From a virus (lineage: Duplodnaviria > Caudoviricetes), in the IMG/VR virus record IMGVR_UViG_3300033076_000880, positions 1 to 47,758 of that record: a stretch of DNA of 47,758 nucleotides. One strand, 5' to 3'. How positions within the stretch are numbered: position 1 is the stretch's first letter; each line of letters opens with the position of its first letter. Of the stretch, positions 3,274 to 42,227 are shown one piece after another. Position numbers and translations under genes: made by a program. A model generated the notes under the pieces. It saw only the letters and a list, made by a program, of their open reading frames with translations, did not search any database and had not been told where the DNA came from.

Positions 3274-5745
3274 ATGCCACAATATTTCTCCGGCCAAGCG
3301 CACGAGCTCGGGCTCGTCACCGCACTCCCTCAAGACACGTTTGTGGCTCTTTGCCACGAGGTCATCGCCACGGGTGTCCGCATTGCGCAGACCAAGGACG
3401 AGTTTTTTGCTCTCCCCAAGAAGGACAAGACCGCACCGCTCGACCAGTCGCGAGCGAAGCGGGTGGCATACATCACGCCCGCCTGCTTCGACTCGTCGCC
3501 CAGCAAGCGCACCACTGATCACGCCGTTCGGTGCAACTTGATCGCCCTCGACATCGACAACGCCGCCGATGCCTCGCGCCTCCTTACGCAAGATTGGGAG
3601 ACGTGTCTTGCGGGCTTCGGATTCATCGTGTGGCACACCGCCAGCTCGACCGAGGACGCACCCCGTCTGCGCGTCTTGGTGCGAGCCGAGGGCATCTCGC
3701 CTGACCGCTATTCCGCTGCCGTCCGCACCATCGCGGACATGATCGGCCTCAGCCAGATCACGCACGAGTCTCGAGTCGTGGTGCAACCCATGTTTTTGCC
3801 CACGCTTTTCGCTGACACTCAACACTCACCCATTCACGCCTACAACGCCGAGGGTGACGCCTTCACGATGGCCGACATCCTGGTGGGCGACGACAGTTCG
3901 TTCGCCGACGACTCGCGCCCGGTCGACGACACACTGGGCGACATCACTTTCCTCCGCACGCCTCTTGAGGGTCTCACGCTCGAAGACGCCGCCTCGGCAC
4001 TCGAGGTTCTCGACCCCGACATGGGGATGCAGAGCTGGGTCGAGATCGGCATGGCTCTGAAGCATCAGTTCAATTCTGACGAAGCATATCAACTCTGGGA
4101 TTCGTGGTCGGCCAAGGGCAAGAAGTACGAATCGTCTGAGGAAACCAAATACAGGTGGGACTCACTCAAGGCGAACCCGGTCGACCGTGCGCCCGTCACG
4201 ATCCGTTCGCTCTTCAAGGCAGCCACAGCTCTTGGCTGGAGCAATGGTACCCTGACAGCGAAGCAGACTGCCGCCGTCGCCGACTGGCTCAAGAACCCCG
4301 CCCGAAGCAGCGAGCAACTGCTGGACGAAGGCGCGAAGCGCATTGCCAAGGTGGGCCCACTTATCGGTCAGCTCGAGCGCAAGGTGCTCATCATGGCCAT
4401 GGCGCAGGCACTGGGCCAGCGAGGCACCAAGCTCCCGGTGCCGGACATCACGAAGGCAGTGCGCCAGCTCGAGCGCGATGCCGCCAAGCAGGCTGGCGTC
4501 GTGCAGTGGGCCAAGGGTCTGTGCTTCGTGACGAGCGAGAACGTGTTCTATCGCCACGGCAGCAACCGCAAGTTTACGCCCGAGGTGCTCGACCTCATGT
4601 ATCAGCAGATGCCTCTCGGTGATGAGAAGCCGATCCTTCCCCGGCATTACGCGATCCAAGTGGCCGAGGTGCCGCAGGTCGAGTCGCTGCGCTACGAGCC
4701 GGGACAGACCAGCAAACGGTTCTTTAACGTCGACGGCGTACCGTTCTGCAACACCTATCGCCCCGACTACGCTGCGCCCGACCCGCTGCGGGCCGACGAA
4801 GCGGCCGAGATCTACGTCGACCACTTGGCGAAGCTCATCAAGGAGCCCGAGCACCAACGCACGCTGACCGACTACTTCGCCTACCTCGTGCAGCATCCCG
4901 GCAAAAAGGTACGTTGGACACCTCTTATCCAGGGCGCGGAGGGTTGCGGCAAGTCCTCCTTGGCCGAGATCATGCGCGTCGTCCTTGGTCGCCGGAACAT
5001 CGGCAAGCTGAACGCGAAGGACGTAATGGATTCCCAATACAACGACTGGGCCTATGGCGTGCAGCTCGTGGTTCTTGAGGAGGTTCGCATCATCGGCCAG
5101 AACCGGCATGCCGTGATGGACAAGCTCAAGCCCTGCATCACCGACGACTTCATCGGCCTCAACTGCAAGTTCGAGCCCAAGCGCACCGTGCCGAACGTGA
5201 CGAATTATCTCATGTTCACGAACTACCACGACTCGCTCGCCATTCGCGAAGACGGTCGCCGCTACTTCGTATTGAGTTCACCGCTACAACGTCCCGAGCA
5301 GATCGCCGCCATCGGTGGCAAGGCCCACTTCGACCGTCTGTATTCGTGCATCAATGACAACGCGGGAGGTCTCCGCGCCTTCTTCGAGAGCTGGCCCATC
5401 AGCAAGGACTTCAACCCCGAAGGCCGCGCCCCCGTCACCCGCTACCTCAAAGAGTTGGCCGAGAACGCGGCGACGCCACTGACCACCGCAGTCAAGCAGT
5501 GCATCGAGGACGAGCCGCACGCCCTCGTGCGCAAGGACTTGCTCTCACTTGGCTGCCTGCGCGGCTCGCTCGACTCTTCGCACCTCACCGAGTTCAGCGA
5601 TCAGGCACTGGCCGCAGTGCTGCGCGAGCTGGGCTGGGAGAAGTTCGACCGGGTGATGATCGACGGAGGCAAACACCAGCTCTGGACGCATGGGTTCAGC
5701 GGTGACGTCAAAGCCGAGGCCAAGCTGCGTCTTGAATTTCTTTAA
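3274..5745 (+). CDS. Primase-helicase (AEP-like N-terminus, PriCT-2, SF3/D5-like NTPase)
   Basis: IALDID and HT motifs; W-x2-IGMALK ... W-x2-WS (PriCT-2); Walker A GAEGCGKS, Walker B VVLEE, MFTN, DGRRYFV. Confidence 0.93.
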   Translation: MPQYFSGQAHELGLVTALPQDTFVALCHEVIATGVRIAQTKDEFFALPKKDKTAPLDQSRAKRVAYITPACFDSSPSKRTTDHAVRCNLIALDIDNAADASRLLTQDWETCLAGFGFIVWHTASSTEDAPRLRVLVRAEGISPDRYSAAVRTIADMIGLSQITHESRVVVQPMFLPTLFADTQHSPIHAYNAEGDAFTMADILVGDDSSFADDSRPVDDTLGDITFLRTPLEGLTLEDAASALEVLDPDMGMQSWVEIGMALKHQFNSDEAYQLWDSWSAKGKKYESSEETKYRWDSLKANPVDRAPVTIRSLFKAATALGWSNGTLTAKQTAAVADWLKNPARSSEQLLDEGAKRIAKVGPLIGQLERKVLIMAMAQALGQRGTKLPVPDITKAVRQLERDAAKQAGVVQWAKGLCFVTSENVFYRHGSNRKFTPEVLDLMYQQMPLGDEKPILPRHYAIQVAEVPQVESLRYEPGQTSKRFFNVDGVPFCNTYRPDYAAPDPLRADEAAEIYVDHLAKLIKEPEHQRTLTDYFAYLVQHPGKKVRWTPLIQGAEGCGKSSLAEIMRVVLGRRNIGKLNAKDVMDSQYNDWAYGVQLVVLEEVRIIGQNRHAVMDKLKPCITDDFIGLNCKFEPKRTVPNVTNYLMFTNYHDSLAIREDGRRYFVLSSPLQRPEQIAAIGGKAHFDRLYSCINDNAGGLRAFFESWPISKDFNPEGRAPVTRYLKELAENAATPLTTAVKQCIEDEPHALVRKDLLSLGCLRGSLDSSHLTEFSDQALAAVLRELGWEKFDRVMIDGGKHQLWTHGFSGDVKAEAKLRLEFL

Positions 5746-16010: not shown

Positions 16011-19000
16011 TTAAAGCTTATTCCAGAAGGTTCCGTCAGAGATGAATTGCGCCGAGTCACCAACGGCGAGGGTCACGGTGTTGGCCGCTGCGGTCGTGAA
16101 GATTTCGTTGGCGGCTGCGGTCGTGACGACGTTGACGGTCACGCTGGCCCGGTTTTTGATTTGGTAGATGCGCCCGGTGGTGCCAGCCACAGCCGGGAGC
16201 GTGAGAGATTGTGATGCGGTAGAACCGCTGAACGATATAAACTGATCGGAAGTTGTTAGCGTGTAGCTCGCCGTTTTTGAAGCTGTCGTGAGGATTTGCC
16301 CACCGCTCAAGCCGGTAAGGGTTCCAGAATAGCTAACGGCATTCACCCGCATGTTGGCGTATGAAGCGGCGTCGCCAAGAACGACGCCGAGTGTTTGGTA
16401 GGAGTCTTTTCTGAGTAGGACGTCAGCGTTTGCTGTTCCAAACTTGACGTTGCCAGTGGTTCCCAGCGTGACGTTGCCGGAAGCCGTGAGGGCACCGAGT
16501 TGCAAGTCTCCCGTGCCTCCCGCATTGCCGGTGCTGATCTTGGCGACGCCAGCCGAGACGCGATCAAAGCCAACGTCTCCTATGGATGCGTTATTGGCCG
16601 CAAGCCAGATTCGGTTGGCGATGTAGCCGATTGCCGTGCTTCCGTTAATGATGAAACCTGGTGCCGAATTTACTCCGTTCGGTGTGTTTAGTTGCCCATC
16701 ATTTTGCAGGTAGAATGATCGGTTGTATTTCGTCGCGGTGACCTGGAAGGCGGCTGCGCTGTCAGCTCCGGTTCCCGTGGTGGGCGTAGTGATCTGAACA
16801 GTCCCCAACGAACTGTCGGCGCTTACGCCAATAGTGGCCCCGGCTGTGTTGCCGAGCTTGATCGTGTTGGTTCCCACCACCGTCGCGTTGGCTAGAAATG
16901 CGGTCCACGGGTTAGCGAGCAGGCCAAGCGTTTCACCACTAGAATTTGGGTAGAAGCTGGCAGAGATGAGTTTGATGCTTCCGCCCATTCCGCTCATGTT
17001 GATCGTGCTGTTTGCCGTCGTCGGCACTTGGAACAGATACGGGGACGAGGATACAAGCGGTGAACTATTGTTGCCGAGGGAGAGCGTGACAGTTCCTGCG
17101 GCGACTCCGGGGCCGTCGCTTTTGATGTGGAACAGGTTTTCTTCTGCGCCGGAATTTACGGAGCGGTAGAGCCCCCAAGAAGTGATGACGTCGGATGTTG
17201 ATGTGGTGCCCGATGCGTTGCTTCGCAGATCGGCGTAAACGTCAAACGTCTTGCTGGCTGCCCCACCCGTGAAGAATCCTGCTCCACGCCAACGAAGGCG
17301 GGGCGAGTAGCGAGCATTGCCAGAGGTGGCGGCGGCATCGTTGGAAATAACAAGTCCGTCCGCGCTTGTATTGGCAGCAATATCATAGCCGAAATAGCCT
17401 CCGCGAACGCGCCTGCCTGCGGCTCCGATGGTATGATTTGCGGCGGCGTCTCCCGGTAGAGGCGTAATTGCTCCGCCACTCCAAGAAAACACCCAGCCCG
17501 AAGTTTGTCCTCCGCTCTGACTTGTATCTAAATTTGCCGACCCGCCACCATCATACCAACGATATCCTTTGGCATACTGACCTCCCCCAAACCACAAACT
17601 CCAAGCGCGAGGCTCATCAAATCGAGTGCCGCTCCTGATCCAATTAACGCCGTCTGAAATCAGCGTGCTGTAATCTTTCTGCACGATCAGAGAGTTATTA
17701 GTCGCATCAGAAAAGAAGACTCTTCCCGTCCCGGTATCGGCTTTCATAACCGTGAAGTGATAGCCGATGCCAGCCGTGGCTGCGCTTGGCATTGTAACGG
17801 TGATGTCGCTGACTCCGGTGGTGACAGAGTAAAGAACTCCACGGTCTGCGGCATTTGCGATAGACGGCGTGAAGTTGGCGCTCTTTGCCGAGACCAACCC
17901 GACCATAGGGGAGTATGGTGCATTATTGATCGTCGTGGTCAGGGTTCCTGCTCCGGCTGAATTGATCGTTACGTTGGCGTCGATGCCGAGAGTGGTGTAT
18001 GCGCTCACGCCGTCGTTGATCGTGTCGAGCTGGATGCCGCTTCCGTTGCCGCTAATGTTCAGGTTCTTATTAACCCCTGCGCGGAACTTTGCGATGGTCG
18101 CGGTGGGGCCGGAAACTTCGGTCGTTCCGTTAGCTAGAAAGACTGCGCCTCGCGTGCCTCCCGGCGTAAAGATCATGGCCTCATTCGGTGCCGTGCCGCT
18201 CGCGGCGATGGTCGGGCCTGACGTGCCGCTACCGAAGCGGGCGGTGCCATTCAAGAATAGTGAGCCAAAAGGCACAGTTGATGAGCCGATATTCGGGACA
18301 TACCCGCCATTGGTTTTGAATTCATTAACCCCAAAATAGTAACTACCGACTCCGGCAAGCGATAGGACCATTTGACGATCCGCGGAGCCGATAGTTAGCG
18401 TTGTATTATTCGTTCCGCCGAGGGTCAGATCGTTGGCTGTTAATCCGCCCGAAAGAATTGTCGGACCCGTTGTGCCGCTGCCAACGATAGTTGTTCCGAC
18501 CAAATTAGTCTTTCCCGCGCTTGGCGGAGTGATGACGAGGTTGCTCGTGGTGAGGTTTCCGGTCGCTGCGATGCTCGCTCCGCCCGCTCCGCCACCTCCA
18601 AGCGTGATGCTGTTGGTGCCGTTCAGCGTGAGCGTGCCGGGGGCGATGATCGAGCTTGGCAAACTGAGCGTCACGTTGCCCGTCGCTGCGCTGGCGGTGA
18701 TCTGGTTTGCCGTCCCGAAGATGGAGGTAGACGGCGCAAGGGTGGTCGGGACGTAGCTCGTTCCATTGCTGGCGAGGACTTGTCCGTTTGTGCCGGTCGC
18801 GGCGGCGAGGGTAGTTGTCCAGCCGGAGCCAAAGCCAGAAAGGCCGGTCGAGATCGGGATCCCAGTGATGGTGTTGGTTGCTCCGCTGATCGACTTGTTC
18901 GTCAGCGTTTCGACCCCATCGAGCGTGGCGAGCGTCCCGCCGGTTGGCAGCGTGACAGTGGTGTTCCCGATAGTGGTCAGGACGAGGGAGAAGGCTCCCG

Positions 19001-19253
19001 AGGTCGTGACGTTGCCACCGATGGTGATCGTCTTCCCGGTGTTGGCGACTCCGGTGCCGCCGTTGGCTCCCGAGATAATGCCCCCTGGCGCGATACCTGT
19101 TGCGACGATGGTGCCGTTGCCCGAAGTCGTGATCGACGTGTTGTTGCCGACGACGATTGAGCCGTTGGACAGGACGTTGCCTGCGCCCTTTTGGACGTTG
19201 GTTTGAGCCAACGCGAGCGACGCAGTGAGGAGGAATGCGAGGAGTTTCTTCAT
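16011..19253 (-). CDS. Long tail fibre / receptor-binding protein with signal-peptide-like N-terminus
   Basis: 1080 aa G/T/S/N-rich; GGTG, TLTNK, GQVL motifs; start MKKLLAFLL at 19253. Confidence 0.85.
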   Translation of the reverse strand: MKKLLAFLLTASLALAQTNVQKGAGNVLSNGSIVVGNNTSITTSGNGTIVATGIAPGGIISGANGGTGVANTGKTITIGGNVTTSGAFSLVLTTIGNTTVTLPTGGTLATLDGVETLTNKSISGATNTITGIPISTGLSGFGSGWTTTLAAATGTNGQVLASNGTSYVPTTLAPSTSIFGTANQITASAATGNVTLSLPSSIIAPGTLTLNGTNSITLGGGGAGGASIAATGNLTTSNLVITPPSAGKTNLVGTTIVGSGTTGPTILSGGLTANDLTLGGTNNTTLTIGSADRQMVLSLAGVGSYYFGVNEFKTNGGYVPNIGSSTVPFGSLFLNGTARFGSGTSGPTIAASGTAPNEAMIFTPGGTRGAVFLANGTTEVSGPTATIAKFRAGVNKNLNISGNGSGIQLDTINDGVSAYTTLGIDANVTINSAGAGTLTTTINNAPYSPMVGLVSAKSANFTPSIANAADRGVLYSVTTGVSDITVTMPSAATAGIGYHFTVMKADTGTGRVFFSDATNNSLIVQKDYSTLISDGVNWIRSGTRFDEPRAWSLWFGGGQYAKGYRWYDGGGSANLDTSQSGGQTSGWVFSWSGGAITPLPGDAAANHTIGAAGRRVRGGYFGYDIAANTSADGLVISNDAAATSGNARYSPRLRWRGAGFFTGGAASKTFDVYADLRSNASGTTSTSDVITSWGLYRSVNSGAEENLFHIKSDGPGVAAGTVTLSLGNNSSPLVSSSPYLFQVPTTANSTINMSGMGGSIKLISASFYPNSSGETLGLLANPWTAFLANATVVGTNTIKLGNTAGATIGVSADSSLGTVQITTPTTGTGADSAAAFQVTATKYNRSFYLQNDGQLNTPNGVNSAPGFIINGSTAIGYIANRIWLAANNASIGDVGFDRVSAGVAKISTGNAGGTGDLQLGALTASGNVTLGTTGNVKFGTANADVLLRKDSYQTLGVVLGDAASYANMRVNAVSYSGTLTGLSGGQILTTASKTASYTLTTSDQFISFSGSTASQSLTLPAVAGTTGRIYQIKNRASVTVNVVTTAAANEIFTTAAANTVTLAVGDSAQFISDGTFWNKL

Positions 19254-19257
19254 GGGA

Positions 19258-20094
19258 TCAAGATTGCTGACCAAAGGCAGGCTGAACAAGGAAGTCGCGT
19301 TTGAGGTTTGTACCATCGAACCACAGCTCGACTCGAGAAGCAGGCGTGAATCCGTCCGCGTTGGACGATATGGTGGTCAATACCGTCCCGCCGACTGCTT
19401 GATCGCGAACGACGAGGTCGATGGCATCGGTCGCAGGGAGGATGAATCTCAGAGACACTCGAGCTCCAGCGATCAATCCGTCGGCCAGTACGATGATGTT
19501 CCGCAGCCCAGCCGCACCAGACACGGTGATCTCCTCGATGTGGAGTTGAGATTCGGGCGTAACAGTGAGGTCACCACTGACGCTGGTCGACTCGTGAGCC
19601 GAGACCAAACCCTGCGGGATGGGGGCAGGGAGAACATAGCTGGGATTGAGCAGCGTGATCGGGCCAGCTCCGTAGATGATCGTCGCGCCTGCGTTGGTCT
19701 TGCCGAGCAGCACGAGCCAGTAGGTTTGCTGCGTGTCACCACTCAGCGTCAGGTCGGTGTCAGCATTCGAAAGGATGATCGTCGCCTGCTGCGCTTCGCC
19801 AGCATTCCACTGGTCGACGGGGATCGTCGGGATGATGCTGTTAGCGTAGACGACCTTGTTGACGACGGCTACGATGGAGCTCTGCGTCTCTTGAATGAGG
19901 AGCTGGAGATACTGGAGATTCGACAGGTCGATGCTCGGGCCCGAAGGCGAGAAGATGCCGACGTCGATGGCGAGCGATTGAGCCCGCCACATCTGCGGAG
20001 CGAAGCCGGTGTTGGCGTCGATGGGCGCAACTGGCGGCGTCGAGACGATGGACAGTTGCAGACGAACCGGGACTTGCTCGTAGGTGGTGCTCAT
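19258..20094 (-). CDS. Tail/baseplate-associated structural protein
   Basis: Beta-rich 278 aa, coupled within the fibre cluster. Confidence 0.75.
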   Translation of the reverse strand: MSTTYEQVPVRLQLSIVSTPPVAPIDANTGFAPQMWRAQSLAIDVGIFSPSGPSIDLSNLQYLQLLIQETQSSIVAVVNKVVYANSIIPTIPVDQWNAGEAQQATIILSNADTDLTLSGDTQQTYWLVLLGKTNAGATIIYGAGPITLLNPSYVLPAPIPQGLVSAHESTSVSGDLTVTPESQLHIEEITVSGAAGLRNIIVLADGLIAGARVSLRFILPATDAIDLVVRDQAVGGTVLTTISSNADGFTPASRVELWFDGTNLKRDFLVQPAFGQQS

Positions 20095-32865: not shown

Positions 32866-33569
32866 CAGGGGAGCGTCGGTCGATAGAAAGCAGACATGTT
32901 CCCGACCAGTTGAGGTGAGAACAGCTCTAAGAATTGCGCCCCGTAGGTGGTGCGGGACAGCTTCGCGAGGAAGGGACTGTTGAGCACCCGAGGAGGGATC
33001 TGGTAGGACTCACTGACGTTGCCGACCATCTTGGACTGGGTCAGCCATTCGGCTTTGCCGCCCAACCCAGTCATGCTCGCTTGGAGCGTCTCGCAAAGGT
33101 AGTGGGCAGCGAGGAGATTGTAGGCGTAGGTGAACGCGGACTGAGACCCGGACAGATTGCGGGTCATGTTAAAAGCTTCGGCGGCGTTGAACGCTCGAGC
33201 TATGTCGAAATCCGACACCTTCTTCGTGTTGGTGTTGTCGCCGCCTAGAGCGACATAGACCAGGGGAGCGGTTGTGTATCCATACCCGCCATTCGTGACG
33301 GCGATGGCTGTGACGGCTCCTCCTACGACGGTCACTGACAAAAGTGCCCCAATACCCCCACCACCGTAGACGACGGCGGCAGGGGTTGGTTGACTGGGGA
33401 GACCAGAGCCAGCCGTATCGACGGCGACTCCGGTTACGCTACCACTGTCATCGATCGATGCCGTGGCCGTCGCTCCTACCACACCAGCGGTCGCAGACGG
33501 AGTCGCGAACGGGAAATCCCGAACGAACTGCGCCTTGAAGTCCGCAATGGTGGGTAGGAGGTAGGCCAC
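32865..33569 (-). CDS. Head-tail adaptor (DUF4054 type) with inserted beta-rich domain
   Basis: FK-x2-F-x-RDFP, L-x-AHYL, S-x2-VG-x-VS-x-SY, T-x-YG-x2-FL; GTG start. Confidence 0.87.
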   Translation of the reverse strand: MAYLLPTIADFKAQFVRDFPFATPSATAGVVGATATASIDDSGSVTGVAVDTAGSGLPSQPTPAAVVYGGGGIGALLSVTVVGGAVTAIAVTNGGYGYTTAPLVYVALGGDNTNTKKVSDFDIARAFNAAEAFNMTRNLSGSQSAFTYAYNLLAAHYLCETLQASMTGLGGKAEWLTQSKMVGNVSESYQIPPRVLNSPFLAKLSRTTYGAQFLELFSPQLVGNMSAFYRPTLP

Positions 33570-33575
33570 GGGGGG

Positions 33576-33890
33576 TCAAACGACTTCGGTGGCGGCTGCT
33601 TTGGCGTCAGCTTTCGGGTCGGTTTTGACTTTACCCTTGGCTGCAGCCGCTTCGAGTTCGGCGATGCGGGCTTTGGCGGCAGCAAGCTCGGCTTGCACGC
33701 CACCAAGTTCCTTCTGGGCAACGCCCGCCTCCACGACGTCGTTCGGCCAGCCTTCCAGCCAAACCTTGGCCACGTCCGCGGGGACGAAGAGGAAGGAGCT
33801 GGGGGCGAGCACGAGCTTGTCGTGGATGTACGAGCGGGACGTGCTGCGGTTGTAGACGCGCACGGGTGAGGGGGTCTCTTTATCTGCCAT
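33576..33890 (-). CDS. Hypothetical head-associated protein
   Basis: Directly after the major capsid gene; coiled-coil C-terminus. Confidence 0.8.
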   Translation of the reverse strand: MADKETPSPVRVYNRSTSRSYIHDKLVLAPSSFLFVPADVAKVWLEGWPNDVVEAGVAQKELGGVQAELAAAKARIAELEAAAAKGKVKTDPKADAKAAATEVV

Positions 33891-33914
33891 GATATGTGAT
33901 CTCCGAGTTGAGGA

Positions 33915-35039
33915 TTAGTATTGGAACAGGAGGGTCTCGAGCGGCTTGTAGAAACCAACGCCCGTGAGTTGCGCGTAGGCAACGTCCTCGAACTGCCAAT
34001 TGTTGATGGTCTGGGGCTGCGTGACGGTGTAGTCCACCGGGATGTCCATGCGCAGCGACTTCGGGTCGTAGCGATAGAGAGCGTAGGTGTTCTTGTTGAT
34101 GCCACGGAGACTGTTGCTGACGGCGGCGTCGCCGTACGCAACGGGGAGGATCTTGAAGTTCGGCCCGCAGAGCGTCTTGAACGCATTCTCGAGGTAGGTC
34201 ATCATCGGGACCGGGAAGGTGCCAGCGGAGCCGGGGACCAGCGTCATCATGCCGAGGTAGTCGGTCATGGGGAGCGCGAAGTGCGTCGGGAGCACGGTGC
34301 TGCCAGAGTTCGTCCAGTAGTCCGCGATGATGTTCTGCACGAACGTGAGGAAGCTCGCCGCATTGAGACCGCTGATGGGGGCGGTGATGCGCGAGGTATT
34401 GATGTTGGTCTTGGTGTTGTTGAACAGACCTTCCATGTTGCCCGACTTGGTGCCGAGGAACGTGATAGCTTGCACACCGAGCTGCCACTTCTTCATGCGA
34501 GCTTCGTGCTTGGAAGCGATGATGTCCCAATTGGAAGCCATCAGCGCTTGCTCAATCTCGGCGAGGGAGTACTCGACGCCGTCGTTCCAGATGAACGTCG
34601 GGAGGGACACAGAGTCCATCGAGACATCGGACTGGGTGCTGCGGGCGTTATGCGAGCCCTGGCGAACGAGGCCAGCTTCAAAGTCGCCGCCGTTCGAATA
34701 CACCCGGCGAGTGAGGATGGACTGGGCCCACGAACCGTCGCCAACAGCGACCGGCACGAAGCTGGAGGGCGTGAGGCCAAACGAGCCGAGCTCGTAGAAG
34801 GTCTGCTCGCTCTGCTGCTGCTTGATGTAGGTCAGCGTGTCGATGAGGATCTGATAACCCGTGGCGGCTTCAGCGGTGGCGGCAGCCGCATTGAAGCGGG
34901 TGTCTAGACCGTTGTTGCGCTCGCCACCGATGTAGAGCGACTTGCTCGCGGTGGCACGGTTGTTGAGGAAAACCGGCTCGCGAACCTCGCGACCTGCGGT
35001 GTCGAGTTTGCCCGTTGGACGAAGAAAAACGCTTTTCAT
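33915..35039 (-). CDS. Major capsid protein (DUF2184 / HK97-fold type)
   Basis: 374 aa; YS-x2-E-x3-A, F-x-G ... GL-x-N, Y-x2-D-x5-M-x-IP, GV-x2-YKP; synteny. Confidence 0.9.
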   Translation of the reverse strand: MKSVFLRPTGKLDTAGREVREPVFLNNRATASKSLYIGGERNNGLDTRFNAAAATAEAATGYQILIDTLTYIKQQQSEQTFYELGSFGLTPSSFVPVAVGDGSWAQSILTRRVYSNGGDFEAGLVRQGSHNARSTQSDVSMDSVSLPTFIWNDGVEYSLAEIEQALMASNWDIIASKHEARMKKWQLGVQAITFLGTKSGNMEGLFNNTKTNINTSRITAPISGLNAASFLTFVQNIIADYWTNSGSTVLPTHFALPMTDYLGMMTLVPGSAGTFPVPMMTYLENAFKTLCGPNFKILPVAYGDAAVSNSLRGINKNTYALYRYDPKSLRMDIPVDYTVTQPQTINNWQFEDVAYAQLTGVGFYKPLETLLFQY

Positions 35040-36655: not shown

Positions 36656-37620
36656 GAGAAGTTGATTACGGGGCGAGCGACACAGCGACAATTCGCCGCG
36701 TCCCCTGGGTGTCCACGGAAGCCGGTAGCTTGGTCGACAATGGGAGGCGATGCCCAAGCGAACGTGCGTCCGTTAAGCGCACGGTGATCGGCGCGGACCC
36801 GCTCATCTTGGCTGGTTTCCCAGACGTATTGAGTCGCGCCGACATCGAGGTAACGCTGGCGGCGAAACTCCGAGACGAGTGCAGCGGTTTCATTTTCAGC
36901 AATCGAACGCGCCCTCCGTTTGGCGATGCCAAAGTCGGCTTCGAGAACTCGGGTGAGTTTGTCGATGCGTCCTCCTTCAGAGAGATTGTCGCGGACTTTG
37001 GCACGGATGGCAGAGATTTGTTCGAGGCTGAAACCCTTGATCGATCGATCGGTCTGCCGGGTCAGGTCTGTCCTCAGTTCCTCGGAAAGACTCGGCGGAG
37101 TCTCCGAAGGGGGTGGAAGTCCTTCCTCGGCGGATACGGTTTCGACTAACTGCTCCTGTAAGTCTTCGGTGATGTTGTCAACAGTATCCGTGAAAGTGAG
37201 TCCCGTAGGAGCGATCTCGATATGCTCCTGCATCGCGTCGAGAGTTGAGACAATCGATCGATGTAGCTCGGCGCTGGTCGCGATGGACGTTGCGATAGCC
37301 CCGCGCAGGACCAGGGGCACGTCGCCGATGGGCAAGGCAAAATTGTCACCTCTGCGCGTCGCACCCATCGCCCGCAGTTCGCGACTGATCGCCGCGTTGA
37401 ACGTACCCATGAACAGTCCTGAGGCATACCAGATGACTCCTGCCAGCAGGGCATCCCACACAGCGGGGTGCTCCTTGTTCTCGTTCACACGGACGTTGTC
37501 GGCCCGCAGGAGGTTGAACAGCGGGTCGTAGATCGACTGCTCGAGATACGCGATCAACTCTTTCGCCACCTCGTCGGTGTAGCGGTCACGGTGCAGGATC
37601 GGCGCAAGCGTCTTTTTCAC
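36652..37620 (-). CDS. Head morphogenesis protein (SPP1 gp7 / Mu gpF family)
   Basis: RA-x2-IA-x2-ET, Y-x-W-x-TS-x-DERVR-x2-H-x2-L-x-G, HPG-x3-NCRC. Confidence 0.94.
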   Translation of the reverse strand: MKKTLAPILHRDRYTDEVAKELIAYLEQSIYDPLFNLLRADNVRVNENKEHPAVWDALLAGVIWYASGLFMGTFNAAISRELRAMGATRRGDNFALPIGDVPLVLRGAIATSIATSAELHRSIVSTLDAMQEHIEIAPTGLTFTDTVDNITEDLQEQLVETVSAEEGLPPPSETPPSLSEELRTDLTRQTDRSIKGFSLEQISAIRAKVRDNLSEGGRIDKLTRVLEADFGIAKRRARSIAENETAALVSEFRRQRYLDVGATQYVWETSQDERVRADHRALNGRTFAWASPPIVDQATGFRGHPGDAANCRCVARPVINFS

Positions 37621-39089
37621 TCGTCCTTCTTCGCCGGTTCTTTGCCCTTCGCAGCTTTCTCTGGCTTACCAGCGGCAACTGGATCCGTCGCCGTGTCCAT
37701 CATCGGCTCGACGTCACGTTCGCCTCGAGAAACTTCCGTCTCGATGTCCAGCAGGTTCTCGCGACGGAGGATCGTGGATGCCTCGATGCCGGTGACCAGA
37801 CGCTGCTGGAAGAGCTCCATGACTCGAGTCTGCTTCTTGCTCTTGACTTCCTCCTCCTGCACTCCGTCGAGGAGTTTGAGGGGCTTCCATTGGATCGTGT
37901 ACTCGGGGACGAACCCGAAAAGTTGCTGGCAGCGCAAGTCGACCACCTCGATGACGACGGGCTCGGCATTAACTCGAACCTGCTCGACCACGGAATTGTA
38001 ATTCTCGATGGAGTCCTGCCCACTACCAAAACCGCTGGCGCTCTGGCCAAACAGCTTATTCATCGGTATCTTCAAGTCGGCCGACAAATTCAGGCGAATC
38101 TCGTTCCACATCTCAGCAAGGCCCGACCAAGTGAGCTGCTTCTGCTGGTAGGTATCTTCCTTGTCCATCACCAGAGCGTTCTGGAAATTCTTCATCCGGT
38201 TGGCTAAATCAACTCGGCGTTGAGTGTTCGCGGTGCCCTCGTCGGTGAGGAGGGCGTCGTTGAATCCCATGATCGAGAAGACGTCGATCTTGGCCTCGTC
38301 CAGAAGCTCGAAGACCAAGTTCTCGAACTTGATGAACGAGTTGATGGCGCGGATACAGCGCTCGATCTCGCTCATGCCCCAGCCCTGCAGGCGCAGGCGG
38401 ATGTAGCTGGGAGCCTCGAGGCCGAGCACCTTGACCACCCGGGAGGTGTGCAGGGGCAGTCCGTAGTAGCTGAAGGGGGTCGGGTTGCCGACGGCGTAGA
38501 TGTTCGTCTGCGACAGGATCAACTCCCACCGATCTGCGGCCAAAAACTCGAGTGGGGAGTCGGGCTGGATCTTTTCGATGTCGAGCGGTTGGCTGAAATT
38601 CTGGTCGGTATTGATGATGAGCCCCGCGCCACCGTAGAGGCGAGACCAGTTGAGGACGTCCATCATCACGCGGATGTCCGAATTGCCCAAGTTGACGGCG
38701 GCATTCGGGTTCACTCGGCGATTGAATTTGTTCAGCTTGCCACTGCGGGCGCGGCGACGAGGGCGTCGAATCGCGTTCTGGAGTTGAGCCAGTTCGTCGT
38801 CGTTCAGCTCATTGCTCTTGATGTCAAAGCCGCCTCGAAAAGCATCATTCACCGGCTGAGTGACGAGCGTCTGCACGAGACCCTGCGTCATGTACGAATA
38901 CGACAGGACGATCCGGTTTAGCGTGAGCGGTACCCCGGCATTGCCCATCGCCAAGGTGTAAGGTTGTGCAATCGTCTGCGTACCGTAGGTGCCAAGCCCG
39001 CCTGTGGTCTGCGCCACGAGGTCGGACAAGCTATTTAGCCGGGTGCCAGCCTTGTCCTCGAGGCCGGTTTTGGGTTCGGTCGCAGTCAT
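37617..39089 (-). CDS. Portal protein (DUF1073 type)
   Basis: RLYGG, H-x-SRV, GWG-x-S, IP-x2-KLFGQS-x2-GF, NY; position between terminase and head genes. Confidence 0.92.
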   Translation of the reverse strand: MTATEPKTGLEDKAGTRLNSLSDLVAQTTGGLGTYGTQTIAQPYTLAMGNAGVPLTLNRIVLSYSYMTQGLVQTLVTQPVNDAFRGGFDIKSNELNDDELAQLQNAIRRPRRRARSGKLNKFNRRVNPNAAVNLGNSDIRVMMDVLNWSRLYGGAGLIINTDQNFSQPLDIEKIQPDSPLEFLAADRWELILSQTNIYAVGNPTPFSYYGLPLHTSRVVKVLGLEAPSYIRLRLQGWGMSEIERCIRAINSFIKFENLVFELLDEAKIDVFSIMGFNDALLTDEGTANTQRRVDLANRMKNFQNALVMDKEDTYQQKQLTWSGLAEMWNEIRLNLSADLKIPMNKLFGQSASGFGSGQDSIENYNSVVEQVRVNAEPVVIEVVDLRCQQLFGFVPEYTIQWKPLKLLDGVQEEEVKSKKQTRVMELFQQRLVTGIEASTILRRENLLDIETEVSRGERDVEPMMDTATDPVAAGKPEKAAKGKEPAKKDE

Positions 39090-39457: not shown

Positions 39458-39492
39458 CCCCAAAAACCTGTTTTCAAGCTCTCTTAAGAGCC

Positions 39493-39536
39493 GAGCCCCG
39501 GTTGCCCGCAAGGGAGGTCGGGGTCTTTTTATTTTT
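39493..39536 (+). terminator. Intrinsic terminator for 39197-39457
   Basis: GC-rich hairpin with GCAA tetraloop followed by TTTTTATTTTT. Confidence 0.75.
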
Positions 39537-39612
39537 GGAGCTGTTACCAGGGGGCGAGCGACCGAGGAGTCCGTCCTCAGTCTGTTTTGTCCCGCCCGCT
39601 GGTAGCAGTCCC
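39537..39612. ncRNA. Stem-closed structured unit
   Basis: CTGTTACCAG/CTGGTAGCAG, then GGGCG/CGCCC and an inner GACCGAGGA/TCCTCAGTC hairpin; strand ambiguous. Confidence 0.5.
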
Positions 39613-39692
39613 TAACTCGGTTTCCCGATCTGCGCTATTAAGCATGGGACTCGACCGACCACGTTCGTCGGAGCGGAACCCTCTTACCCTAA

Positions 39693-39733
39693 GAAAACAA
39701 AGAACCCACATCCGCTTAAAGATGTGGGTTTTT
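39693..39733. terminator. Bidirectional intrinsic terminator-like hairpin
   Basis: AACCCACATC/GATGTGGGTT 10-bp stem with A-rich left and T-rich right flank. Confidence 0.75.
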
Positions 39734-39820
39734 CCGTCTAGCTGACCCTGCTTCCTCCGCTATCGGGTCACTCTCAGCGGCAGTTGAGTGAGTTACTTCA
39801 TTGGTGGTGAGGGAAAGGTG

Positions 39821-39910
39821 TCACGGCAGCGAGGCGTCCCGAGTTACCTTTGGGACCGGCCCCCGTTACTCTTGCGAGTGGGGATACCGAGAAAAGTATC
39901 GCTGCCGTGA
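39821..39910 (-). ncRNA. Four-way-junction structured RNA unit (90 nt)
   Basis: 12-bp inverted repeat TCACGGCAGCGA/TCGCTGCCGTGA enclosing three hairpins; GCAA and GTAA tetraloops on the - strand. Confidence 0.7.
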
Positions 39911-39917
39911 AAATGAA

Positions 39918-39982
39918 AGACGCCGAGCGGGTTGGATTGCTAGTTAGTTTGCTTTAGTGTAACCGGCAAGTGCTCGGCGTCT
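39918..39982 (-). ncRNA. Stem-closed RNA unit (65 nt)
   Basis: 11-bp inverted repeat AGACGCCGAGC/GCTCGGCGTCT; strand inferred from neighbours. Confidence 0.6.
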
Positions 39983-39985
39983 AAT

Positions 39986-40028
39986 TGGTGCGGGCCAGTG
40001 ACAAGGTCGCTAAACCATACCAGCCCGC
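39986..40028 (-). ncRNA. tRNA-acceptor-like minihelix ending in ACCA (43 nt)
   Basis: GCGGGCUGGU pairs with ACUGGCCCGC (two G-U pairs that form only on the - strand), followed by ACCA. Confidence 0.65.
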
Positions 40029-40091
40029 CGAGTTTCGTCGCAGTCGATCTTGGACTACGCCCGCTAAGGCGCAGTTTCTCCAAGTTTGCAA

Positions 40092-40156
40092 TCCCCACGA
40101 CTACCTCGAAATTGAATTGCTCCTGACACAGCAGGCTCCGCAAACCAGTCGTGGGA
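40092..40156 (-). ncRNA. Stem-closed RNA unit (65 nt)
   Basis: CCCACGACT/AGTCGTGGG 9-bp inverted repeat, inner CCTG/CAGG hairpin. Confidence 0.58.
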
Positions 40157-40159
40157 AAG

Positions 40160-40223
40160 TGATACTTTCGACGTGCTGGCGATGAGCTTAATCCTGCCAA
40201 GAACTCATATCTCGGATGTATCA
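40160..40223 (-). ncRNA. Stem-closed RNA unit (64 nt)
   Basis: TGATAC/GTATCA outer stem, ATGAG/CTCAT inner stem. Confidence 0.45.
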
Positions 40224-40232
40224 GAAGCAAAT

Positions 40233-40532
40233 TGGTGGATGTGGCGGGAGTCGAACCCGCGTGCTTCAAATTTCGCCCGTCACCTCGACATGCTTAAAGG
40301 GTGCCTGAGATCAGGCACCTCCACCATCTAGCTGTTTAGACCGTCGCTAGAACCGGCTTTTCGCTGTATCCAAAGCGGGCAAGAATCTCGTCCGCTTGCT
40401 CCAGACTGGGAGCTTCAGTGAGGCTAATGTTAGTGTTAGCTTTTATGGTTTGGCACGAAGTTTACGAGTATCAGTGCCATCCTCGGCATGCAGTTCGGAG
40501 CTACGTTGGAAGTAGAATCCATGAACACACCC
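40233..40532 (-). ncRNA. ssrA: tmRNA (one-piece, 300 nt), tag ANTNISLTEAPSLEQADEILARFGYSEKPVLATV*
   Basis: Acceptor GGGUGUG/CACAUCC with G3-U wobble and encoded ACCA; T-arm GCGGG-UUCGACU-CCCGC; 5' GGAUUCUAC; GCAUGC/GCAUGU helix; AUAAAA-GCU resume context; tag ORF 40440-40336. Confidence 0.95.
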
Positions 40533-40541
40533 AAAAGTTTC

Positions 40542-40598
40542 GCCACCACCTCAACGTGCTTTCCTGTTTTCTCTTACCCCACTCGCAGAGGTGGTGGC
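40542..40598 (-). ncRNA. Stem-closed RNA unit (57 nt) immediately upstream of the tmRNA
   Basis: 11-bp inverted repeat GCCACCACCTC/GAGGTGGTGGC with purine-rich interior on the - strand. Confidence 0.6.
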
Positions 40599-40670
40599 TT
40601 GTTAAAGAACATCGGTTGAGCCGACGGATGAGAAGAGAACAACTCTTGTGCTGTCGCGCAAGAACTAATT

Positions 40671-42227
40671 TCAAATAATCGACGCCTCACTGAACTTGGA
40701 TGCCTCGACCTCTTTTTTCTCAACCTTGGCGTCGATGATCTTCTTGAACACCGCCACCAGCGGGTCTCGCATTGCCTCGTCCAGCTCCGCATCCAATTCC
40801 TTCTTACGTCGCTCGGCTTCCTCCTTCTTGAATGCCTCGGTCTGCGCAGGCGTCATGCGCCGCCCACCAATGACACTGAGGATCGAAGTGCCCTTGCCGA
40901 GGCAGAGAAACACCCCGTCGGCGAATGCGTCGACTTGGTCATCCTTGGTGCTCTTGCCGTCCTCGCGGAACGCAGCGCACTCCTGCTCGAACGCAGGCAG
41001 CCACGTCGCGTCCTTTGGCAGCCAGACCATGCCGGTCGCTTGGTAAGCCAAGATCTGCTTCACGCGGGTCACCTTGTCCTTCACGCGAATGACGCCCTTC
41101 GTGGGGATGCCTTTCTTGCGGAGGTCTTGGATGAGCGTCAGACCAGCGGCGGCTTCCTCGACACTCATGTAGGCGACGGGCGAAGCAGACTTGTGGTGCT
41201 TCTCGTAGAAAGCCCTGGCGATGCGGAGCAGGTCAGCAGGTGCCCATTTGCCGCGCATCTGGTCGATCAGGTAGGCTTTCTTCTGATACCGACCCCAGCA
41301 CTGGAGAACCGAGTGGTCGTTCGCTTCCTTGGTCTTCATGGCGGTGTCGGCCACGATGATCTTGAACTCGAACTTGGGTGCGTATTCGGCGGTGTAATAC
41401 CTAAAGTCCTCCGTCTTGATGAGGTTGCCGCCGATGACGGTCGGCTCTTGAAGATACTGCGCAGCGAAGGCGAAGGGATTCACCCGTTGCGTGTCCAGCA
41501 GGGACTTCGTGCTGACGGTCTCGGGGATCGCCGACTCGCCGTTCGGGGCGAGGGCGGAGAACTTGATATGGTGAACGTCGTCGGGATACTCGCGCAGCAC
41601 GAAGCCGGACAAGTCCTCCGTATCAAGCCGCTGCATACAAATGATGATCGGAGTCCACTGCGAACTGTTGCGGCGGGACTTGAGGGTATTCTCGAACCAA
41701 AACCGCAGTTTCTCCGACTCCACCCTCGAGAGTGCCTCATCGGGCTTGCTGGGATCGTCCAGCACGATGAACCCGCCAGCGCGACGCTTGAGCCCCGCAC
41801 CAAGGCCGGTCAGCGATCCACCGACGCCGTCGCCGTAGACCTTGCCGCCGTTCTCCGTCGTGAAGTGGTCGGCTTGACGAATCTGGCCCAGCCGGGTCGG
41901 AAACAGCTCGGCATACCACGGCGTCGCCATGACCTGCTGAATGTAGCGCACCGACGTCTTCGCCAGCTCGTTCGAGTAGCTGAGATAGATCATCTGCGCG
42001 TCGGGAAAATACCCCAACATCCAAGAGTTCAGTGCCTCCATGATCTTCGTCTTACCCACGCGAGGCGGGATGTTGACCACGACGAAGCTCTTGTTCAGCT
42101 GGCCCAGCACGGCGCGTTGCAGGGTCTCGCACGACGAACGGTGCAGATCTTTGATGGGTAGCTCCAGCCCCATCAAGGGCACGAAGGCTTTCTCGAAATA
42201 GTCGGCGAATGAAAGGAAGTCGCTCAT
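40671..42227 (-). CDS. terL: Terminase large subunit
   Basis: NIPPRVGKT Walker A, LTG-x-GA, IVLDDP Walker B, MQRL, F-x-AQY-x-QEP, DTA-x-K-x4-ND-x-S, DDQVDA. Confidence 0.96.
   Translation of the reverse strand: MSDFLSFADYFEKAFVPLMGLELPIKDLHRSSCETLQRAVLGQLNKSFVVVNIPPRVGKTKIMEALNSWMLGYFPDAQMIYLSYSNELAKTSVRYIQQVMATPWYAELFPTRLGQIRQADHFTTENGGKVYGDGVGGSLTGLGAGLKRRAGGFIVLDDPSKPDEALSRVESEKLRFWFENTLKSRRNSSQWTPIIICMQRLDTEDLSGFVLREYPDDVHHIKFSALAPNGESAIPETVSTKSLLDTQRVNPFAFAAQYLQEPTVIGGNLIKTEDFRYYTAEYAPKFEFKIIVADTAMKTKEANDHSVLQCWGRYQKKAYLIDQMRGKWAPADLLRIARAFYEKHHKSASPVAYMSVEEAAAGLTLIQDLRKKGIPTKGVIRVKDKVTRVKQILAYQATGMVWLPKDATWLPAFEQECAAFREDGKSTKDDQVDAFADGVFLCLGKGTSILSVIGGRRMTPAQTEAFKKEEAERRKKELDAELDEAMRDPLVAVFKKIIDAKVEKKEVEASKFSEASII

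What the first reader, a model, noticed from the sequence alone, without database searches (positions are those of the whole stretch)
39537..40670. Array of small stem-closed RNA units surrounding a phage tmRNA between terminase and portal
Seen: ~1.1 kb with no credible ORF in an otherwise gene-dense genome, tiled almost end to end by 40-90 nt units. Each unit is closed by its own inverted repeat: 40542-40598 (11 bp), tmRNA, 40160-40223 (6 bp plus inner stem), 40092-40156 (9 bp), 39986-40028 (10 bp plus ACCA), 39918-39982 (11 bp), 39821-39910 (12 bp, four-way) and 39537-39612. Most units are separated by 3-10 nt linkers that are U-rich on the - strand, and a terminator hairpin sits at 39693-39733. 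The units share architecture but not sequence, so this is neither CRISPR nor a repeat family. Known: phage tRNA/tmRNA clusters have this layout and are processed from one transcript. Inference: a polycistronic cassette of undescribed small RNAs (decoys for anti-phage RNases or RNA-binding defence proteins, antitoxin mimics, tRNA mimics, or packaging-associated RNAs). This is my best candidate for a new system in the window.
Basis: partly seen in the sequence, partly recalled or inferred. Interest (0 to 1): 0.9.

Follow-up and report, generated by a model that had tools for sequence, protein, structure and literature searches.

The report
Swappable phage stable-RNA operon with tmRNA
Between two packaging genes, an uncultured phage carries a ribosome-rescue RNA (tmRNA) and about seven uncatalogued RNA-like units predicted to fold separately behind a ribosomal-RNA-type signal; its closest relatives lack the block, so it is likely optional cargo that helps keep the host's protein synthesis working for the phage.

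Summary
Mostly real. The interval holds an intact tmRNA (Rfam 96 bits) and units closed by 10-14-bp stems that match no Rfam family. A missed boxA element (40599-40610) heads the block. In four related phages a stem-closed, G/A-rich unit starts at the same offset from boxA with different stem sequences, the only comparative support for a unit of this window. No homologue was found for the other units, and no RNA data exist. The closest relatives (terminase 85-87%) have terminase abutting portal, so this is variable cargo, not packaging RNA. Two unit pairs are complementary to each other (18 and 15 bp), unlike 65 control pairs. The tmRNA tag is 34 residues, of a family seen in 59 other loci. 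Best reading: a Nus-dependent stable-RNA operon, cut into tmRNA plus small RNAs that likely protect translation from host defences; function is inferred only. Closest known: T4 RNAC/RNAD. This scan has reported the same layout, and the long tag, in other phages.

The parts
40671..42227 (-). Terminase large subunit (upstream flank)
   Evidence: phrog_38, E 4e-88
40610..40626 (-). Hairpin directly before boxA (boxB-like; also scores as terminator-like)
   Evidence: a related contig in run X1 shares 22 nt at 40604-40625
40599..40610 (-). boxA-like antitermination element
   Evidence: Same 7-nt core in 10 of 10 fetched Verrucomicrobiota 16S-23S spacers and, allowing C/T at position 2, 10 of 19 16S leaders; same place in L008, L009, L017, L299
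40542..40598 (-). U1: 11-bp stem closing a 35-nt purine-rich loop; leader unit conserved as a frame in the clade
   Evidence: z -5.7; 10-12-bp stem at the same offset from boxA in four relatives, null 1.1% per site
40233..40532 (-). One-piece tmRNA with G3-U acceptor pair and encoded CCA
   Evidence: RF00023 96.2 bits; missed by ARAGORN
40336..40440 (-). 34-residue tag frame (P0001), ending in Val rather than Ala-Ala
   Evidence: family alignment A7; 57 viral and 2 metagenome loci
40117..40230 (-).
40033..40111 (-). Unit B: ~80-nt interrupted hairpin, outer stem uncertain
   Evidence: z -3.5 alone; outer-stem probability 0.06 in context
39986..40028 (-). U5: 43-nt minihelix-like hairpin ending in ACCA; 40001-40015 complementary to 39736-39751
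39918..39982 (-). U6: 11-bp closing stem with A/C-rich interior
   Evidence: z -5.6
39821..39910 (-). U7: 12-bp closing stem with internal hairpins; 39873-39895 complementary to the U1 loop 40567-40587
39735..39818 (-). Weakly folding segment whose 3' end is complementary to U5
   Evidence: z +1.3; duplex -22.4 kcal/mol, 2 of 5000 shuffles
39693..39733 (-). Intrinsic-terminator-like hairpin; its tail contains a second boxA core (39699-39705)
39537..39612 (-). U9: stable branched hairpin beyond the terminator; strand and membership uncertain
   Evidence: z -5.7 on -, -6.2 on +
39490..39533 (+). Hairpin plus T-run on the + strand, likely terminator of the convergent ORF
   Evidence: sequence; 84% match over ~42 nt to a terminator in L299
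39197..39457 (+). Convergent 86-aa ORF, matches the C-terminus of an unknown family
   Evidence: phrog_6978, E 5e-11
37617..39089 (-). Portal protein (downstream flank)
   Evidence: phrog_146, E 9e-70

Best explanation
The block is an optional non-coding insert holding a boxA element, an intact tmRNA and stem-closed units, and it is likely transcribed as one rRNA-type (Nus-antiterminated) precursor that host nucleases would cut into tmRNA plus about seven stable small RNAs, whose likely job is to keep translation running against host RNA-targeting defences. Shown: tmRNA anatomy, boxA match, predicted stems, absence from the nearest relatives, turnover of content at this site. Inferred steps: (1) NusB/NusE bind boxA so the untranslated transcript escapes Rho; (2) RNase P and RNase E-type cuts at the U-rich linkers plus 3' trimming release the units, and the closing stems stop exonucleases; (3) the U1 loop pairs with U7, like the leader-trailer helix of pre-rRNA, and may give an RNase III site or join the two RNAs; (4) the tmRNA uses host SmpB and writes a phage-type 34-residue tag; (5) the small RNAs act as tRNA-/stable-RNA-shaped decoys. 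Odds: processed stable-RNA operon about 0.8; counter-defence role given that, about 0.5.
For: tmRNA intact; no smpB in the complete phage genome. boxA core matches likely-host rrn spacers and boxA is necessary and sufficient for rrnTAC (PMC10250234, passages). Leader-unit frame at one offset in window, L008, L009, L017 and, found afterwards, L299, where it ends in ACCA and is followed by a terminator; the five stems differ in sequence yet pair, with two compensatory changes between window and L008. Linker words are the most enriched 7-mers across 11 arrays, though not above the shuffled maximum. Terminase-portal gaps in 31 distinct loci run from 91 to 2518 nt with unrelated content. Arrays beside other long-tag tmRNAs contain tRNA-shaped units (L120, L008), pistol ribozymes, tRNAs and weak YrlA hits. 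A sibling unit family after tmRNA has 8 of 11 closing-stem pairs with two-sided changes, 0 of 500 shuffles (7 related sequences). Phage tRNAs as counters to host tRNA nucleases: PMC10264068 (passages); defences predicted to bind tmRNA: PMC11090510 (passages).
Against: No homologue of A, B, U5, U6, U7 or U9 in 175 loci or 74 further loci, so no covariation for them. The sibling-family model does not recognise any window unit beyond a bare stem. No sigma-70 promoter found. Genome-wide folding contrast is modest. Of the 48 distinct portal loci only 10 have the boxA core and 4 the frame, three of which defined it; 0 of 20 core sites in long-tag loci have it. MAFFT/RNAalifold does not recover a clean consensus for the five leader units. 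No shared interior motif across arrays. Inter-unit pairing is not seen in five other arrays (0 of 65 pairs). Nothing ties the units to a defence system.
Confidence: 0.5

Rival explanations
1. The units assemble by base pairing (U1 with U7, U5 with 39736-39751) into one higher-order RNA or one large folded RNA, rather than acting separately.
For: U1:U7 duplex of 11+7 bp, -30.7 kcal/mol, 3 of 5000 shuffles, best minus-strand partner among 4336 genome windows (arms). U5 pair of 7+8 bp, 2 of 5000. 2 of 45 pairs here at z near -4 or lower, versus 0 of 65 below -3 elsewhere. Large ornate phage RNAs occur in tRNA regions (PMC12286853, search listing only).
Against: After correcting for 45 pairs each is only about p 0.02-0.03. 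The segments sit inside local hairpins, and the net energy after opening them is unknown. The two pairings cross each other. L009 has the loop motif but no significant partner. Linkers and ACCA ends favour separate RNAs.
Confidence: 0.2
2. Only the tmRNA (and its boxA/leader-trailer processing frame, captured from a host rRNA operon) is functional; the other units are decaying relics of a tRNA operon.
For: L009's leader loop shares 13 identical nt with a host pre-23S spacer (0 of 300 shuffles); that host segment lies in the 23S leader-trailer helix. No homologues for most units.
Against: Perfect 11-14-bp stems are unlikely to survive without selection. L017, L299 and L008 keep boxA and the leader unit with no tmRNA, so that unit is itself a product. 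The window's own resemblance to the host spacer is marginal (12 of 300 and 68 of 300), and absent in L008 and L299.
Confidence: 0.15
3. Packaging RNAs (pRNA-like) serving the flanking terminase and portal.
For: Position between the two genes; complementary loops recall phi29 pRNA (recalled, not tested).
Against: Relatives with 85-87% terminase and 80% portal identity have a 92-nt gap and no cassette; content of the site is unrelated among relatives.
Confidence: 0.04
4. Y RNAs or other ligands of a Ro60-type protein.
For: L177 has a long-tag tmRNA next to weak YrlA hits and a Ro60-like ORF (protein named from recalled sequence features).
Against: No TROVE domain in this genome; no YrlA hit in the window at E up to 10; YrlA genes lie within 4 kb of Ro60 (PMC4201824, first part read).
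Confidence: 0.05
5. Chance hairpins and terminators in a spacer.
Against: z -6.1 for the stretch; conserved boxA-stem frame; 14-bp stem 2 nt after the tmRNA CCA, null 0.13%.
Confidence: 0.06

Closest known systems
Phage T4 RNAC and RNAD (small RNAs of the T4 tRNA region)
   Same: Small RNAs of unknown role transcribed with a phage's stable-RNA genes (PMC3014915 and PMC9697503, passages).
   Different: Here there are about seven units and no canonical tRNA, the anchor is a tmRNA, the block is optional cargo between terminase and portal, and it carries boxA. Sequence relationship to RNAC/RNAD was not tested beyond Rfam.
Bacterial rrn operon leader/spacer: boxB-boxA-boxC and leader-trailer helix
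   Same: Hairpin, boxA, then a G-rich segment complementary to a far-downstream segment (PMC10250234, passages; host examples).
   Different: No rRNA is enclosed; the helix is 18 bp with an internal loop rather than 25-40 bp; both arms sit inside separately closed units; seen in this genome only.
Phage-encoded one-piece tmRNA (RF00023)
   Same: All landmarks present; phage ssrA genes are known (PMC4131195, passages).
   Different: 300 nt, 34-residue tag with a conserved central block and a Val end; sampled Verrucomicrobiota tags are 8-16 residues ending in Ala-Ala.
Polycistrons of irregular tRNAs (allo-tRNA paper) and YrlA tRNA mimics
   Same: Co-transcribed tRNA-like small RNAs not used in translation (PMC5389517, passages; PMC4201824).
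   Different: The window's units lack T-arm and anticodon-arm signatures; no Ro60 or toxin-antitoxin genes recognised nearby.

Membership tests
tmRNA (RF00023) | Full-length covariance match above the gathering score | tested here: met
   96.2 bits vs 47, model 1-374
tmRNA (RF00023) | Alanine acceptor stem with G3-U pair and CCA; open tag frame after the first pseudoknot | tested here: met
   alignment; translation
tmRNA (RF00023) | Tag ending in Ala-Ala degron (recalled as typical) | tested here: not met
   ends Ala-Thr-Val; most family members end Ala-Ala
Phage stable small RNAs of tRNA regions (T4 RNAC/RNAD type) | Non-coding units inside a phage stable-RNA gene cluster | tested here: met
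   adjacent to tmRNA with U-rich linkers; but no tRNA gene
Phage stable small RNAs of tRNA regions (T4 RNAC/RNAD type) | Accumulate as discrete processed RNAs in infection | not testable with these tools
   no RNA holder listed
rrn-type antitermination (boxA/rrnTAC) | boxA consensus at the 5' end of an untranslated operon | tested here: met
   the 7-nt core alone occurs 19 times in the genome, so position carries the argument
rrn-type antitermination (boxA/rrnTAC) | boxC-like segment forming a leader-trailer helix | tested here: inconclusive
   18-bp complement in the window; none in relatives; marginal likeness to host spacer
rrn-type antitermination (boxA/rrnTAC) | NusB-NusE binding and read-through | not testable with these tools
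   needs experiment
Y RNA (YrlA, RF02553) | Ro60 gene nearby and match to the YrlA model | tested here: not met
tRNA | Cloverleaf with T-arm and anticodon arm | tested here: not met
   ARAGORN and Rfam negative
Packaging RNA | Conserved with the packaging motor | tested here: not met
   absent from nearest relatives
CRISPR or repeat array | Repeated sequence units | tested here: not met
   only two short weak direct-repeat families
Catalogued ribozymes and riboswitches | Rfam match | tested here: not met
   the same kind of search finds pistol ribozymes in four other long-tag loci

The most novel reading that the evidence does not exclude
A phage has borrowed the host's pre-rRNA transcription and processing signals to make a set of small RNAs that lock onto each other by built-in complementarity (U1:U7, U5:3' segment), forming a multi-RNA device, together with a tmRNA that re-labels stalled proteins with a phage-specific helix; the boxA-leader unit is the minimal, exchangeable core of a clade-wide RNA cargo system.
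Probability: 0.15. Interest if true: 0.85.

Novelty: new variant of a known kind. Interest (0 to 1): 0.55.

Why it matters
The roles of small stable RNAs in phage tRNA regions are still unknown even in T4. This clade offers a natural series at one site: no cassette (L003), boxA plus one or two units (L017, L299, L009), four to five units (L008), and the full block with tmRNA (window). That makes the minimal unit definable and cheap to test by synthesis. If the units are decoys they add an RNA class to phage counter-defence; if the pairings are real they show designed RNA-RNA assembly; the long tag would show phages redirecting trans-translation products.

Tried and rejected
Rfam at E up to 10: only tmRNA. 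Cultured phages: only ~30-nt T-arm matches; tag peptide no match. Pattern scans for the U1 loop (21 hits, only L009's own contig stem-closed) and for boxA plus U1 stem (5 hits, only L008's own contig). Metagenome scan with the tag gave 2 loci, neither with window-like units. Model R1 of the sibling cloverleaf family: no hit in 41 sources, stem-only scores in the window. A second small unit shared by L010/L015 and perhaps L017 looked like 39613-39690 by eye but aligned poorly and was not modelled. SRP, hammerhead, cobalamin and c-di-GMP likenesses seen by eye were dropped for lack of Rfam support. Shared k-mers not above shuffled maxima. Tag profile against PDB: best E 0.99; no Pfam. Portal not found in 401 genomes of the likely host phylum. 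No RNA holder listed; contigs of run X1 cover the stretch in one piece and may be its source. Literature searches found no description of this cassette type in this clade; the library lacks most subscription papers, and the supplementary models of PMC10690425 (about 8,500 candidate RNAs from IMG/VR; passages read) were not checked and may contain some units. The net stability of the two inter-unit duplexes after opening the local hairpins was not computed and is open.

Full report
Setting. The window is a complete 47,758-bp virus record with direct terminal repeats, with tail-sheath and baseplate genes. The finding lies between terminase (40671-42227) and portal (37617-39089), both on the minus strand. 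The host is unknown. A pattern from the first part of the tmRNA hit 7 genomes in the genome collection, 6 titled Verrucomicrobia and 1 titled Limnocylindria, all with short tags of one type; no portal relative was found in 401 genomes of that phylum. Verrucomicrobiota is therefore a likely, inferred host group.

Observation. The tmRNA is real. The units 40160-40223 and 40092-40156 do not survive context: the fold forms a 114-nt unit A with a 14-bp stem starting 2 nt after the tmRNA CCA, and an 80-nt unit B. The tmRNA-free stretch folds at z -6.1, but in fixed windows the contrast with the rest of the genome is modest and one coding stretch scores lower. No unit matches Rfam.

The site is variable cargo. 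Contigs with 85-87% terminase identity (L002-L004, near-identical to each other) have a 92-nt gap between the matches. In 31 distinct loci with both genes the gap is 91-2518 nt, filled with protein genes, small RNA-like units or both. None of 74 portal loci has a tRNA or tmRNA by ARAGORN, which however also misses the window's tmRNA; Rfam found none in the ten clade loci scanned. This removes a packaging role.

A conserved head. Twelve bases before U1 begins a boxA-like element. Its 7-nt core is in the 16S-23S spacer of 10 of 10 host-group operons fetched (these were 10 of the 19 genomes with a 16S hit, chosen, and one genome with a variant core was not among them). In the window, L008, L009 and L017 an uninterrupted 10-12-bp stem begins at the same offset, against 1.1% of random positions and 0 of the other 18 core sites in the window. 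L299, found later, repeats this, ends in ACCA and is followed by a terminator. Of 48 distinct portal loci 10 have the core and 4 the frame; three of the four defined it, so one of eight other sites is new. The five stems differ in sequence and all pair; window and L008 differ by two compensatory changes. Loops are 65-76% purine in the four measured and share a run of four G followed by A-rich sequence, but they do not align cleanly. A second related contig in run X1 shares 22 nt over the hairpin and boxA.

Likeness to pre-rRNA. In 8 of 10 host spacers a G-run plus UA motif follows boxA, and in the 4 of 10 operons where both 23S ends were located the spacer pairs with the trailer (no shuffle control). 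L009's loop shares 13 identical bases with one host spacer (0 of 300 shuffles); the window's loop is marginal (12 and 68 of 300), L017 borderline, L008 and L299 negative. In the window the U1 loop (40567-40587) is complementary to U7 (39873-39895), 11+7 bp, 3 of 5000 shuffles, which mirrors the boxC leader-trailer arrangement described in PMC10250234 (passages). A second pair joins U5 (40001-40015) and 39736-39751, 2 of 5000. These are 2 of 45 pairs tested; none of 65 pairs in five other arrays reached z -3 (unit borders there were set by eye). That makes the pairs unusual but also unreplicated, and their net stability is not known.

The tmRNA tag. The frame gives 34 residues ending Ala-Thr-Val. 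A two-sequence profile found 57 viral and 2 metagenome loci with an invariant central block (15 aligned). It was not found in 401 genomes of the likely host phylum (four weak hits inside longer frames); the 30 best-scoring cellular tmRNAs of 93 genomes have 8-16-residue tags (choosing by score favours ordinary tags). The phage has no smpB.

The layout recurs. A stem of 10+ bp follows the CCA within 8 nt in 7 of 40 distinct long-tag loci (null 3.4%; five belong to one family, one is a tRNA). That family's closing stem covaries, but its model does not recognise the window's units. L120 and L008 carry several closed units with T-arm-like or CCA ends. No sequence homologue of A, B, U5, U6, U7 or U9 was found in 175 plus 74 loci.

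Mechanism. The anatomy is that of a stable-RNA operon: boxA, tmRNA, U-rich linkers, protected ends, terminator. Processing by RNase P, RNase E and exonucleases follows from established tRNA-operon biology (recalled) and is inferred. For function I favour protection of translation: phage tRNAs are proposed to counter host tRNA nucleases (PMC10264068, passages), some defences are predicted to bind tmRNA (PMC11090510, passages), and fast turnover of cargo fits an arms race. No result here shows it.

Comparison and verdict. T4 RNAC and RNAD are the precedent, roles unknown (PMC3014915, PMC9697503, passages). Earlier notes of this scan describe the same layout, boxA and long tags in other phages; they are unchecked and not support. 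What this locus adds is a definable minimal unit in a natural series, no tRNAs, and two inter-unit pairings. New variant of a known kind; interest 0.55.

Noticed in passing
L120-L178: 59 loci, 57 of them viral, share a ~30-43-residue tmRNA tag with an invariant central block; several end in residues other than Ala-Ala.
   Followed up: partly
L121:2121-2200, L130, L132, L141, L143, L144, L149: An ~80-nt cloverleaf-like RNA without CCA directly after the tmRNA, closing stem strongly covarying; no Rfam match in the three scanned.
   Followed up: partly
L153:2805-3460, L160:2824-3480: The tmRNA T-arm is interrupted by ~650 nt that looks like a group I intron with a reversed ORF (by eye).
   Followed up: no
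L152:1180-1248, L153:1939-2006, L158:1950-2017, L160:1191-1259: Pistol ribozymes upstream of long-tag tmRNAs inside long non-coding stretches.
   Followed up: no
L177:1650-3140 and 3657-5090; L178: Long-tag tmRNA within a cluster of tRNAs, Y-RNA-like units and three boxA-like elements, followed by a Ro60-like ORF.
   Followed up: partly
L120:2760-3720: Seven or more closed units after the tmRNA, three with T-arms and greatly expanded middles.
   Followed up: partly
L010:5631-5706, L015:2435-2510, L017:1609-1668: A second small closed RNA with its own promoter-like site in the terminase-portal interval; hairpins differ by compensatory changes between L010 and L015 (by eye).
   Followed up: partly
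L008:3319-4092 and equivalents in L001, L009, L010, L015, L045: A convergent ~230-aa gene resembling a glycosyltransferase by eye occupies the same interval; no Pfam hit.
   Followed up: no
L001:493-1062: The first half of the terminase gene is inverted relative to the second half; may be an assembly artefact.
   Followed up: no
window 33040-34460: Coding stretch around the capsid and head genes has the lowest folding z-scores in the genome.
   Followed up: no
window 16011-19316: 1101-aa ORF with no PHROG or Pfam match at the end of the virion module.
   Followed up: no
window 40060-40065 and 40007-40012: Units B and U5 end in the same predicted four-base loop closed by a U-G pair.
   Followed up: no
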